Assembly (NCBI GenBank): GCA_951406725.2 | Contig: OX597834.1 | Span: forward strand, 28,520,001-28,584,000 | Source of the DNA: Octopus vulgaris | Taxonomy: Eukaryota | Length of the DNA stretch: 64,000 nucleotides | Reading direction: 5' to 3' | Part shown: one piece after another, positions 34,188 through 61,542 of the stretch | How the letters are laid out: each line of letters begins with the position of its first letter | Numbering within the stretch: the stretch's first letter is position 1 | Translations under genes and position numbers: made by a program | The notes under the pieces: generated by a model | What the model was told of the DNA's origin: nothing | What the model saw: only the letters and a program-made list of their open reading frames with translations | Database searches by the model: none

Positions 34188-34573
34188 GTAGAGGCGCAAT
34201 GGCCCAGTGGTTAGGGCAGCGGACTCGCGGTCGTAGGATCGCGGTTTCGATTCCCAGACCGGGCGTTGTGAGTGTTTATTGAGCGAAAACACCTAAAAGC
34301 TCCACGAGGCTCCGGCAGGGGATGGTGGTGATCCCTGCTGTACTCTTTCACCACAACTTTCTCTCACTCTTACTTCCTGTTTCTGTTGTACCTGTATTTC
34401 AAAGGGCCGGCCTTGTCACTCTCTGTGTCACGCTGAATATCCCCGAGAACTACGTTAAGGGTACACGTGTCTGTGGAGTGCTCAGCCACTTACGCCTTAA
34501 TTTCACGAGCAGGCTGTTCCGTTGATTCGGATCAGCCGGAACCCTCGTCGTCGCAACCGACGGAGTGCTTCCA
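34188..34573 (+). mobile_element. SINE family B, full length, 11-bp TSD
   Basis: The TSD tatcatatatg lies at 34177-34187 and 34574-34584. Confidence 0.93.
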
Positions 34574-41037: not shown

Positions 41038-41906
41038 CTAGCAGTATAGCCCGGCGTTGCCCGGGTATGTAAGAGCCCCCTAGTAGGCAACGACTAATCC
41101 CAATCTAGTCCTTCCCTCTAGGGAACGAAGGCATATGTGTAGGTTGAAATGTCTTCTCTTCACTCCAATACTTCTGTGTATTCGATGTTCCTAGCTGTCC
41201 CTTTGGGCGAAAATATGAAAACATCATTGCGCCTCCCAACGCGTGAACAGCCCACGAAGAGTTGACCGTGGGCGAAGCACTGTTCGCCCAACTGTAACCC
41301 AGCGACTTGTAGCGTTTGGCCTTGGGATTTATTGATGGACATTGCGAAGCAGAGTTTAACAGGAAACTGAGAACGCCTGAAGTGGATTGGTAGGTCAGCG
41401 CCCGACGGTTGAAGGTGCATGCGTGGAATGAAGACGTCCTCTCCCTTCCCACAACCGGTAAGTATTGTGGCCGTTATTAAATGTGGTGGCAAATGTTTCA
41501 CAACCAGACGTGTGCCGTTGCACTGTTTAGGTGGAACCAAATTCCTGATGAGCATAATGGGCGCACCGACTTTTAACTTCAGGATGTGTGGCGGCAGGCC
41601 TGGCGGTTCAAGTGAATTCAGGAATTCAACAGGATAATCGGCAAGCTCGGCGGGGTCTGCTGTCCTATCAATAGATTTGTAGACTTGGACATCACCAGGA
41701 ATAGCTTCAAGTAGCTGGATATTGATGGAGTTGAGAGTTAAAAAGGTCGAGTTGCGTTCCCTAGACAGTCTGTGGTTTGTGTTTCTGATTCTCGACCCCA
41801 TGTCGAATTTATTGATTTTTTTCAGAACTGGTGGAACTTTTCAAAACTTTTGCTGCGTTAGTTTTGAATTATGACATTGGGCTATGTGTGTGTCAAGTTT
41901 CATCAG
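41038..41906 (-). mobile_element. Helitron deletion derivative carrying the C-terminal PIF1-type helicase part of RepHel
   Basis: ORF 41160-41801 reads FLNSLEPPGLPPHILKLKVGAPIMLIRNL...CNGTRL...QFPVKLCFAMSINKSQGQTL...FAHGQLFVGCSRV...NIEYTEVL. The 3' hairpin CCCGGGCAACGCCGGG is followed by CTAG|T. The extreme 5' end is missing. Confidence 0.93.
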
Positions 41907-49200: not shown

Positions 49201-49484
49201 AAAGCACTACATTTGCATGCATACATACATACATACATACATACATACGAAGAAATGAAGGTGGTAGAGGCTTGAGATCAGTGCAGACGGCCTTCGAATG
49301 TATGTATGTATGTATATATATATATTTAAGTATGTGAATGAATTATCTTAGTATTGATAATTCGGTTAATCGATACCTGGGTTGCAAATTCACGTCAGCA
49401 GACACGGTTGAAGCTACATGCCAAGGGCAGAAACCCCGTGTTCCTGTGTGGTAATTTGTGTGTTTTTTTTTATATGAATAAATG

Positions 49485-49716
49485 AAAGAATGGAGTCGAA
49501 CGAAGATTTTAACAAAATTCCTTTACTCTCAACACATGTTTCGAAGACTGCATACTCTTAATTCCGAAGGAATAAAGGGTACATTATGCCGTCTTCTCAT
49601 CAGGAAAGACAAGGAACCTCTATCAGCCTCAAGACGAACAAAAACTTTTTGATGACTGCCTACATGATGTCCACAGTGATAAATTTTGTTAAAATCTTCG
49701 TTCGACTCCATTCTTT
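49485..49716 (-). mobile_element. Penelope-like unit bounded by a perfect 35-bp inverted repeat
   Basis: aaagaatggagtcgaacgaagattttaacaaaatt (49485-49519) and its exact reverse complement (49682-49716) enclose a hammerhead. Confidence 0.75.
49526..49608 (-). ncRNA. Type I minimal hammerhead ribozyme
   Basis: CUUUC-CUGAUGA-GAAGAC(g)GCAUA...UAUGC(a)GUCUUC-GAAAC-AUGU-GUU^GAGAG. The core is complete, stem I has 5 bp and stem II has 6+5 bp. Confidence 0.82.
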
Positions 49717-49722
49717 AATTTA

Positions 49723-50232
<510 letters not shown>

Positions 50233-51551: not shown

Positions 51552-52020
51552 CTTGTGCTACACTAGTATGTGAAACCACCTCTGATACGTGGTATTTGGT
51601 CAACAAGGGAGTTCGACGCCGCTGCCCGCATCTGTGTTTCCTGCCGAGAGGTAGGTTCATCTGGGATCCCTGGCAAGAAGAGATCGAGTTTAGTTTTAAA
51701 GAAACCCACATCCACACCATGCAGGTCTCTCAGGCATTTAGGAAGGATATTGAAGAGCTGTGGTCCCCTGAAATCCAAGCTGTTGCAGTATCTAGTCCTG
51801 TATTTTGATGGTGATGTTGGGATCTTTGGCACCATGTAGTGGCGCCCCGTTCTGCTTTTGGTGTAACTTTCAATGACAAAATTTGGGACAAGACCCTCCT
51901 GGATTTTCCAGATGTATATCACTGCATATCTCTCCCGCCTTCGCTCCAGGGAGAAAAGTTTTAATACTTTCAGTCTTTCCCAGTAGCTGATATGTTGCAT
52001 TGAGACGATCTTCTTAGATG
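51548..52020 (-). mobile_element. CR1/Jockey-group LINE 3' end
   Basis: SYWERLKVLKLFSLERRRERYAVIYIWKI.EGLVPN...GPQLFNILPKCLRDL..VD...FKTKLDLFL..IPDEP, then a stop and a short tail into (TA)n. Confidence 0.88.
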
Positions 52021-52289
52021 CTCTTCCACGCACTTTCAGTCAATCAAATCTCTCAGAAGAGATTGGTCGGCCTGGTGCTATAGTAGGAGATGCTTAGCCA
52101 AGGTGGTGTGCAGTGGAAACTGAACCTGAAATTATATGGTTGCAAAGAGAACTTCTTAACAAACACATTTGTATGGTTGTGTGTGCGTGAGTATGATTAT
52201 GTTTGTGTGTGTGTGTGTTTGCGTGTGCGTGAGTATGCTTGTTGGTGTGTGTGTGTGTGTGTCTGTGTGTGTGTTTGTGTATGTGTGTA

Positions 52290-53625: not shown

Positions 53626-53813
53626 TTAACGGTATCAAAAATACGATATAAAATAATGAATTCATTCTAAAGAGAGCGATTTTAATGAAAGCATATCAGT
53701 TTTCGCTTTGCCGTAACCATCTTGAAATTCCATCTCGTACGTACCCAAGATGGAAACACCCCGTAATAGAAAACGGAAACGGTAACAATACAGATCGATG
53801 TTGTTGCAGTAGT

Positions 53814-54197
53814 GGAAGCATTCCGTCGGTTACGACGACGAGGGTTCCGGTTGATCCGAATCAACGGAACAGCCTGCTCGTGAAATTAACGTCTAAGTGG
53901 CTGAGCACTCCACAGACACGTGCACCCTTAACGTAGTTTTCGGGGATATTCAGCGTGACACAGAGAGTGACAAGGCCGGCCCCTTGAAATACAGGTACAA
54001 CAGAAACAGGAAGTAAGAGTGAGAGAAAGTTGTGGTGAAAGAGTACAGCAGGGATCACCACCATCCCCTGCCGGAGCCTCGTGGAGCTTTTAGGTGTTTT
54101 CGCTCAATAACACTCACAACGCCCGGTCTGGGAATCGAAACCGCGATCCTATGACCGCGAGTCCGCTGCCCTAACCACTGGGCCATTGCGCCTCCAC
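53814..54197 (-). mobile_element. SINE family B, full length, 12-bp TSD
   Basis: The TSD tgttgcagtagt lies at 53802-53813 and 54198-54209. Confidence 0.93.
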
Positions 54198-61065: not shown

Positions 61066-61230
61066 ATTAGAAAAAAATACCTTTTACCAATTCAACATTG
61101 AAAAAATTAAATTATACCATATAGAAAAAAATTACATCCTATAAAAAAAAATCAAATATAATATAAAAAATATATGCCAATGATTAAGTAGTGTACAAAA
61201 TAATAAATAAAACGTATATATTTGGTAAAA

Positions 61231-61313
61231 TGACTACACGTGTTTCGTGGCTATATTTAAGAACTGATTACAGTAAAATCAATTCAATTTAAATATAGCC
61301 ACTCTTCAGGTCA
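61231..61313 (-). ncRNA. Type I minimal hammerhead ribozyme inside an AT-rich Penelope-like insert (about 61066-61630)
   Basis: UGAC-CUGAAGA-GUGGCUAUAUUUAA...UUAAAUAUAGCCAC-GAAAC-ACGU-GUA^GUCA. The core is perfect, with a 4-bp stem I, a perfect 14-bp stem II and a palindromic stem III ACACGUGU. Confidence 0.9.
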
Positions 61314-61542
61314 AAGATAAAATCAATAAAATCAATAAATATACGTATATAATCTTGTAAAATATGAAATATCTTAACAAATATATTCTGGTGTAAATAA
61401 AAATAGAATAAATAGTTATAAATATTTATTATATCTATAAAAATAAAATTTTAACTTATATAAGAAAAGAATAACAAACTATAATGTATCTTTACTAGAA
61501 AATAAAATACAATTAATTAAATTATTTAAAACATATATATAA

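What the first reader, a model, noticed from the sequence alone, without database searches (positions are those of the whole stretch)
49485..49716. Second hammerhead, unrelated in sequence but the same architecture, enclosed by a perfect 35-bp inverted repeat
Seen: the minus strand reads CUUUC CUGAUGA GAAGAC..GUCUUC GAAAC AUGU GUU^GAGAG, inside a 232-bp unit whose ends are exact 35-bp inverted repeats. Its stems differ entirely from the 61231 ribozyme while the core, the overall length (83 nt each) and the near-palindromic stem III are kept. Inference: this is either the inverted-end product typical of Penelope-like insertion or a MITE-sized ribozyme-bearing element. A transcript would fold back into a dsRNA-closed loop.
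Basis: partly seen in the sequence, partly recalled or inferred. Interest (0 to 1): 0.72.

Follow-up and report, generated by a model that had tools for sequence, protein, structure and literature searches.

The report
Truncated Penelope-like retrotransposon end with hammerhead
This is the cut-off 3' end of a common Penelope-like jumping gene, carrying the hammerhead ribozyme motif such elements normally have; the inverted repeat is a flipped second copy of that same end, likely made during insertion, so the feature is real but ordinary.

Summary
The hammerhead (minus strand, 49608-49526) and the inverted repeat are real, but the 232-bp unit is not a discrete element. The repeat runs 49 bp with one mismatch, and the element continues about 145 bp beyond its left arm. 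The genome search gave 2,633 candidates, 40 scored. [quoted passage not shown] Arm length varies from 28 to 625 bp over 31 inverted insertions, which rules out a MITE. Copies end at two fixed sites about 150 nt apart, both abutting (TA)n; inverted pairs carry the extra 'tail' on one side only. The ribozyme stems covary between subfamilies. All this is the published layout of Penelope-like elements, and a Hydra family with a hammerhead is already listed for Octopus. One deviation: this family lacks the Hydra CxCX5C linker (0 of 22 loci, against 75 of 76 full-length homologues with CxCx4-7C) yet still ends in (TA)n. Cleavage and expression are untested.

The parts
49313..49325 (.). (TA)n at the tail end of the insertion
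   Evidence: sequence; 43 of 49 tail ends in 58 loci abut (TA)4+
49327..49470 (-). PLE 'tail', ~145 nt, from end site A to end site B; in longer copies it runs on into the 5' leader and ORF start
   Evidence: 4 of 49 B sites continue into the leader: L049, L052, L055, L059
49471..49519 (-). 3' terminal 49 nt of the pseudo-LTR in the sense copy (left arm of the inverted repeat), ending at site A
49526..49608 (-). type I hammerhead motif; core CUGAUGA 49603-49597; predicted cut after 49531 (GUU); near-palindromic stem III/loop ACAUGUGU
49609..49681 (-). rest of the 5'-truncated 3' UTR/pseudo-LTR; truncation point at 49681/49682 with a 1-nt overlap
   Evidence: whole sense copy 94-97% identical to 24 other loci; 87.5% to the 3' end of near-full-length L049
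49682..49730 (+). inverted, 5'-truncated second copy of the pseudo-LTR 3' end (right arm, 49 nt), ending at site A without tail
49731..49858 (.). (TA)n then (GA)n flank at the site-A end
   Evidence: sequence

Best explanation
The feature is a 404-bp, 5'-truncated insertion of a multicopy Penelope-like retrotransposon of Hydra type: a sense piece of the element's 3' end with its hammerhead motif and tail, joined head-to-head to a 49-bp inverted copy of the same end, likely made when two reverse-transcription events at one (TA)n site stopped early and were joined. Shown: the family link, the ORF, the two fixed end sites, the one-sided tail, the variable arm length. Inferred from work on another PLE (PMC11167929): the element's protein nicks both strands of AT-rich DNA and starts cDNA inside its RNA at two sites, which would be A and B here. 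The hammerhead is inherited cargo of the pseudo-LTR; in multimeric transcripts it would cut as a dimer through its palindromic stem III or with protein help; this lone copy is predicted to cut poorly.
For:: 2,633 candidates, 40 scored; most best hits cover query 50-262 only, so the 5' arm is not family body; upstream of the hammerhead lies an ORF with DKT, FDISSFYPS, GLYRDD and a C-terminal SIYQC..YIG..QRISNH endonuclease; arms of 28-625 bp in 31 inverted insertions, 87-100% identical within an insertion; 29 of those 31 have the tail on exactly one side by the strict test; the other two (L002, L061) show a tail start on one side; 44 of 52 tail-less A ends and 43 of 49 B ends abut (TA)4+. The predicted cut lies about 60 nt from site A and 205 nt from site B, so the ends are not made by the ribozyme; 94.6% of cells paired, 10 of 32 pairs with double changes, 0 of 500 shuffles as high, slid controls 33-47%; 76 of 79 copies keep CUGANGA; triplet GUU 43, GUC 20, GUA 4 of 71 scored. 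Literature: inverted 5'-truncated copy, one-sided tail and (TA)n are described for PLEs and Hydra (PMC8557442); Hydra-1_Obim with hammerhead in its supplement.
Against: No Pfam RT or GIY-YIG hit for the family proteins (homologue P0007 also has none), and no PDB relative; the domain call rests on motifs and on by-eye agreement with the Hydra rows of the paper's supplement. The Hydra CxCX5C linker is absent and RWK reads RWL. No copy with a complete unbroken ORF was found among 20 loci fetched. The tail is ~150 nt, not the 30-40 nt in print. L021 has two outward ends that both carry tails (different subfamilies), and L059 is a compound locus left out of the pair count. Junction microhomology is mixed: 6 of 14 junctions overlap by 1-4 nt, 7 show gaps, 1 overlaps by 22. 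The loci are top-scoring hits, not a random sample.
Confidence: 0.93

Rival explanations
1. A discrete MITE-sized element with fixed 35-bp terminal inverted repeats that carries a ribozyme and moves as a unit.
For: L002 has a similar small unit (254 versus 256 bp, arm 49 versus 47 by the same measure); L046 and L047 share a 257-bp unit.
Against: L002 has a different junction; arms range 28-625 bp; family sequence extends 145 bp beyond one arm; the body is the 3' UTR of an RT/EN element.
Confidence: 0.02
2. A non-autonomous retrozyme: a short hammerhead repeat amplified through circular RNA.
For: Short type I hammerhead units derived from PLE pseudo-LTRs are described (bioRxiv 10.64898/2026.07.22.740005, part 1 read).
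Against: That paper defines them as tandem repeats with a hammerhead in each unit; this copy is single, and short copies have staggered 5' ends running into the ORF.
Confidence: 0.03
3. An ordinary PLE relic by origin, but now used by the host as an edited or small-RNA-yielding hairpin.
For: A transcript across it is predicted to form a 49-bp duplex.
Against: The copy is young (94-97% to 24 loci), the arms already differ at one site, and the neighbours seen in 40-56 kb are simple repeats and mobile-element pieces.
Confidence: 0.02

Closest known systems
Hydra clade of C-terminal EN+ Penelope-like elements (Craig et al. 2021, PMC8557442), e.g. Hydra-1_Obim
   Same: Single ORF RT then GIY-YIG; DKT motif; no CCHH; CxxC and CxH around the conserved E and N; canonical hammerhead near the 3' end; (TA)n ends; inverted 5'-truncated copies.
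   Different: CxCX5C linker replaced by an Asn-rich stretch of about 80-140 aa; RWL for RWK; repeat unit ~3.56 kb (L049) against <3 kb; stem II 54 nt against short stems in the listed Hydra motifs; not the Hydra-1_Obim family (different hammerhead and protein rows, by eye).
PAc, Poseidon element of Anolis (Frangieh et al. 2024, PMC11167929)
   Same: Two fixed 3' end sites bounding a tail; hammerhead in the pseudo-LTR whose cut site is not the element end; AT-rich targets.
   Different: Different clade; tail ~150 nt and lying upstream of the ORF start here, against 30-40 nt; mechanism shown in vitro there, only inferred here.
Metazoan PLE type I hammerheads (Cervera and de la Pena 2014, PMC4209133)
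   Same: Short stem III with palindromic loop, in the flanking repeats, thought to act as dimers.
   Different: Unusually long stem II; youngest subfamily has a GUU triplet and two G-U pairs in the predicted dimer helix.
Non-LTR retrozymes
   Same: Short, non-coding, type I hammerhead, PLE-derived.
   Different: Not tandem, no fixed unit; a truncated copy of an ORF-bearing family.

Membership tests
Penelope-like element, C-terminal EN+ | Single ORF with RT followed by GIY-YIG endonuclease | tested here: met
   ORFs of 693-833 aa in L049, L055, L063, L066 spanning RT to EN; by motif and homology, not by Pfam
Penelope-like element, C-terminal EN+ | Pseudo-LTR from partial tandem, often with inverted 5'-truncated copy | tested here: met
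   L049, L052, L059 show end+tail before the ORF; 31 inverted pairs
Penelope-like element, C-terminal EN+ | Tail at one end only | tested here: met
   29 of 31 pairs strict, 2 more; length ~150 nt rather than 30-40
Penelope-like element, C-terminal EN+ | Hammerhead motif in the pseudo-LTR | tested here: met
Hydra clade | DKT motif in place of DKG | tested here: met
   P0003, P0004
Hydra clade | CCHH absent from EN; CxxC and CxH beside conserved E and N | tested here: met
   C-terminal ends read (CGVC..E..N..CMH)
Hydra clade | N-terminal RWK motif | tested here: inconclusive
   RWL in L049 and L056; RWK in 91 of 120 homologues, so not invariant
Hydra clade | CxCX5C linker between RT and EN | tested here: not met
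   0 of 24 segments from 22 loci in three frames; 75 of 76 full-length homologues have CxCx4-7C, 62 of 76 the exact spacing. So filed as Hydra-type, not as canonical Hydra
Hydra clade | Ends at (TA)n | tested here: met
   44 of 52 and 43 of 49 ends
Hydra clade | RT phylogeny with named Hydra families | tested here: inconclusive
   Tree of 29 rows (25 best of 120 homologues): family nests with an Argonauta protein (100/99) among Hydra-motif homologues, far from a Neptune-like ORF of the same genome (20% identity, long branch); no named reference was in the tree
MITE | Constant terminal inverted repeats and fixed size | tested here: not met
   arms 28-625 bp, units 217-4573 bp
Non-LTR retrozyme | Tandem units each with a hammerhead | tested here: not met
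   single motif in this insertion; no fixed tandem unit in 58 loci
Hammerhead ribozyme (active) | Self-cleavage at the NUH site | not testable with these tools
   only contigs available; needs an assay

The most novel reading that the evidence does not exclude
A cephalopod lineage of Hydra-type PLEs has replaced the RT-EN linker zinc finger with an Asn-rich stretch and still inserts strictly at (TA)n, so the linker is not what aims these elements at microsatellites; and every inverted insertion uses end site A on one strand and site B on the other, the genomic trace of an asymmetric two-RNA, two-strand insertion complex.
Probability: 0.55. Interest if true: 0.4.

Novelty: new member of a known kind. 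Interest (0 to 1): 0.2.

Why it matters
The locus itself is one relic among many and matters little. The family offers a natural test of a published idea, that the linker zinc finger directs PLEs to (TA)n (PMC8557442): it lacks the finger, while a very young sister family in the same genome has it, and both end in (TA)n with two end sites. The one-tail-per-inverted-pair pattern is a clean genomic readout for the unresolved later steps of PLE insertion.

Tried and rejected
Rfam: whole window gave only microsatellite-driven miRNA hits among the 150 rows shown of 245; the local search gave no hammerhead. The repeat finder on the whole window was swamped by simple repeats. Pfam and PDB gave no RT or EN hit. 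Sequencing runs: no RNA holder listed; four runs of contigs were laid, none spans the locus or its junction, differences cannot be told from other copies, so nothing on expression, cleavage or editing is taken from them. Earlier scan findings: none returned. Target-site duplication could not be read inside (TA)n. The ORF of the 61231 family was not found within 1.5 kb flanks of 20 loci. MITE and retrozyme readings rejected as above. Paper searches found no description of this family, but none was aimed at linker loss, and Repbase/Dfam and the bioRxiv supplements could not be seen, so the family may already be catalogued.

Full report
Observation. The minus strand holds a type I hammerhead from 49608 to 49526: stem I 5 bp, CUGAUGA, stem II 6 bp with an extension to 54 nt, GAAA, a 2-bp stem III with palindrome-like loop, and a GUU triplet, predicted cut after 49531. 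A strict descriptor finds two motifs in the window, this and the 61231 one, and none in 200 shuffles. The 35-bp exact inverted repeat is there, but it extends past one mismatch to 49 bp, 49471-49519 with 49682-49730. Rfam does not report the motif.

It is a repeat family. The own-genome search gave 2,633 first-look candidates, of which 40 were scored; most best hits cover query positions 50-262 only. So the arm at 49682-49730 is an inverted duplicate of the family's 3' end, not part of its body. The genome is 2.8 Gb and rich in microsatellites, and the nearest named protein relative is from Argonauta, so the host is likely an octopod (inference).

What the family is. Upstream of the hammerhead, longer copies run through about 550 nt of 3' UTR into an ORF. 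[quoted passage not shown] None is complete and unbroken. The first 500 aa match 335 proteins at up to 42% identity; one carries RVT_1 and one is named a GIY-YIG endonuclease. Pfam itself gives no RT or EN hit for the family or for homologue P0007. Motif by motif the protein agrees by eye with the Hydra rows in the supplement of PMC8557442. In a tree of 29 rows it groups with the Argonauta protein at 100/99, among Hydra-motif homologues and far from a Neptune-like ORF of the same genome; named references were not in the tree.

Anatomy of insertions. After dropping 9 duplicate loci, 58 remained. Copies end at two fixed sites: A, right after the pseudo-LTR (window 49471 and 49730), and B, about 150 nt further (window ~49327). 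In four loci B runs on into a leader and the ORF start, so the tail is the stretch between pseudo-LTR and ORF. 44 of 52 tail-less A ends and 43 of 49 B ends abut (TA)4 or more; six of the eight A exceptions continue into a diverged tail by eye. In 31 inverted pairs the arm is 28 to 625 bp. 29 of 31 have the tail on exactly one side, either side; L002 and L061 show a tail start on one side. L021 (two subfamilies, two tails) and L059 (compound) were left out of the pairs. The window copy is therefore (TA)n, tail, pseudo-LTR end with hammerhead, truncation at 49681/2 with a 1-nt overlap, 49-bp inverted arm, (TA)n(GA)n. Its sense part is 94-97% identical to 24 other loci. These loci are top hits, so the counts are not genome-wide rates.

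The ribozyme. Across 79 copies, 76 keep CUGANGA; the triplet is GUU in 43, GUC in 20 and GUA in 4 of 71 scored. On 65 distinct copies 94.6% of cells pair and 10 of 32 pairs change on both sides, above all 500 shuffles and far above slid controls; relatedness inflates the shuffle test, and the structure was drawn from these sequences, but double changes such as A-U to G-C (13 rows) and U-A to C-G (14 rows) mark subfamilies. Stem III does not fold alone; two copies form an 8-bp duplex at -6 kcal/mol, -7 for the older perfect palindrome. Inside the inverted repeat the hammerhead fold costs 6.3 kcal/mol against the best fold. The cut site is about 60 nt from A and 205 nt from B, so it does not define the ends. 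No cleavage or expression data exist here.

Mechanism. Shown: family link, ORF, two end sites, one-sided tail, variable arms, (TA)n. Inferred: the element's protein nicks both strands in (TA)n and primes cDNA inside its RNA at A on one side and B on the other; both copies stopped early (49 and 355 nt) and were joined head-to-head. PAc of Anolis cuts and extends both strands, starts at two internal sites that bound the tail, and does not need its hammerhead for insertion in vitro (PMC11167929, main text read). Metazoan PLE hammerheads are weak and act as dimers or with help (PMC4209133, passages). Whether (TA)n is the target or is added at the ends cannot be told without empty sites.

Comparison with print. 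PMC8557442 (passages, section 11, supplement passages and part 2) describes inverted 5'-truncated copies, a one-sided tail, hammerheads in all Hydra families, (TA)n insertion, and Hydra-1_Obim from Octopus bimaculoides, whose hammerhead and protein differ from this family. PMC13282606 (passages) lists recently active Penelope-like families in Octopus vulgaris and has no mention of hammerhead or Hydra. The retrozyme preprint (part 1 of 5) defines retrozymes as tandem units, which this is not.

What differs. The CxCX5C linker is absent in 0 of 24 segments from 22 loci and replaced by an Asn-rich stretch, while 75 of 76 full-length homologues have CxCx4-7C. A second, very young Hydra-type family in this genome has the linker, intact 727-aa frames, a 3.36-kb unit and the same two-site ends with a ~70-nt tail, so long tails and a size above 3 kb are not special to this family; the missing linker is. 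I therefore file the family as a PLE of Hydra type rather than canonical Hydra.

Verdict. Real feature, ordinary explanation: a truncated PLE end with its usual ribozyme motif and an insertion-made inversion. Interest 0.2; the linker-less family is the only lead worth following.

Noticed in passing
G000 loci L088-L099 (e.g. C1:194227291-194229402): A very young Hydra-type PLE family: 62 of 64 scored hits have no stop inside, most with 727-aa frames; CxCX5C linker, compact hammerhead, two end sites ~70 nt apart, (TA)n ends, tandem and inverted copies 99-100% alike. Likely recently active.
   Followed up: partly
window 61080-61540 (hammerhead 61313-61231, minus); loci L068-L087: Separate AT-rich repeat family (2,230 candidates, 40 scored) with a conserved hammerhead, (TA)n flanks and inverted copies of 104-188 bp in 3 of 20 loci; likely another PLE end, ORF not found in 1.5-kb flanks.
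   Followed up: partly
L003:1084-1190, L048:5165-5271, L079:1174-1280: Older sister subfamily (~70-78% alike) with CUGAAGA core, GUA triplet and compensatory stem changes.
   Followed up: partly
L053 (minus strand ORF of 628 aa): Neptune-like PLE ORF (clade label by recalled motifs) beside a copy of this family; used as outgroup.
   Followed up: partly
window 41160-41840 (minus): Pif1-type helicase fragment (PF21530, E 4e-16), likely a Helitron piece.
   Followed up: partly
window 49860-50230 (plus) and 51563-52039 (minus): Fragments that read like LINE reverse-transcriptase ORFs (recalled motifs; no Pfam hit).
   Followed up: no
window 34276-34573 and 53813-54110: 298-bp dispersed repeat in opposite orientation, 97% alike.
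   Followed up: no
L058:218-1222 in oriented locus: Single-exon ORF that looks like an amine GPCR, about 1.2 kb from a copy of this family.
   Followed up: no
P0006 (public protein, Argonauta): Annotated as 'GATA zinc finger domain-containing protein 14-like' but is a Hydra-type PLE reverse transcriptase; likely a misannotation.
   Followed up: partly
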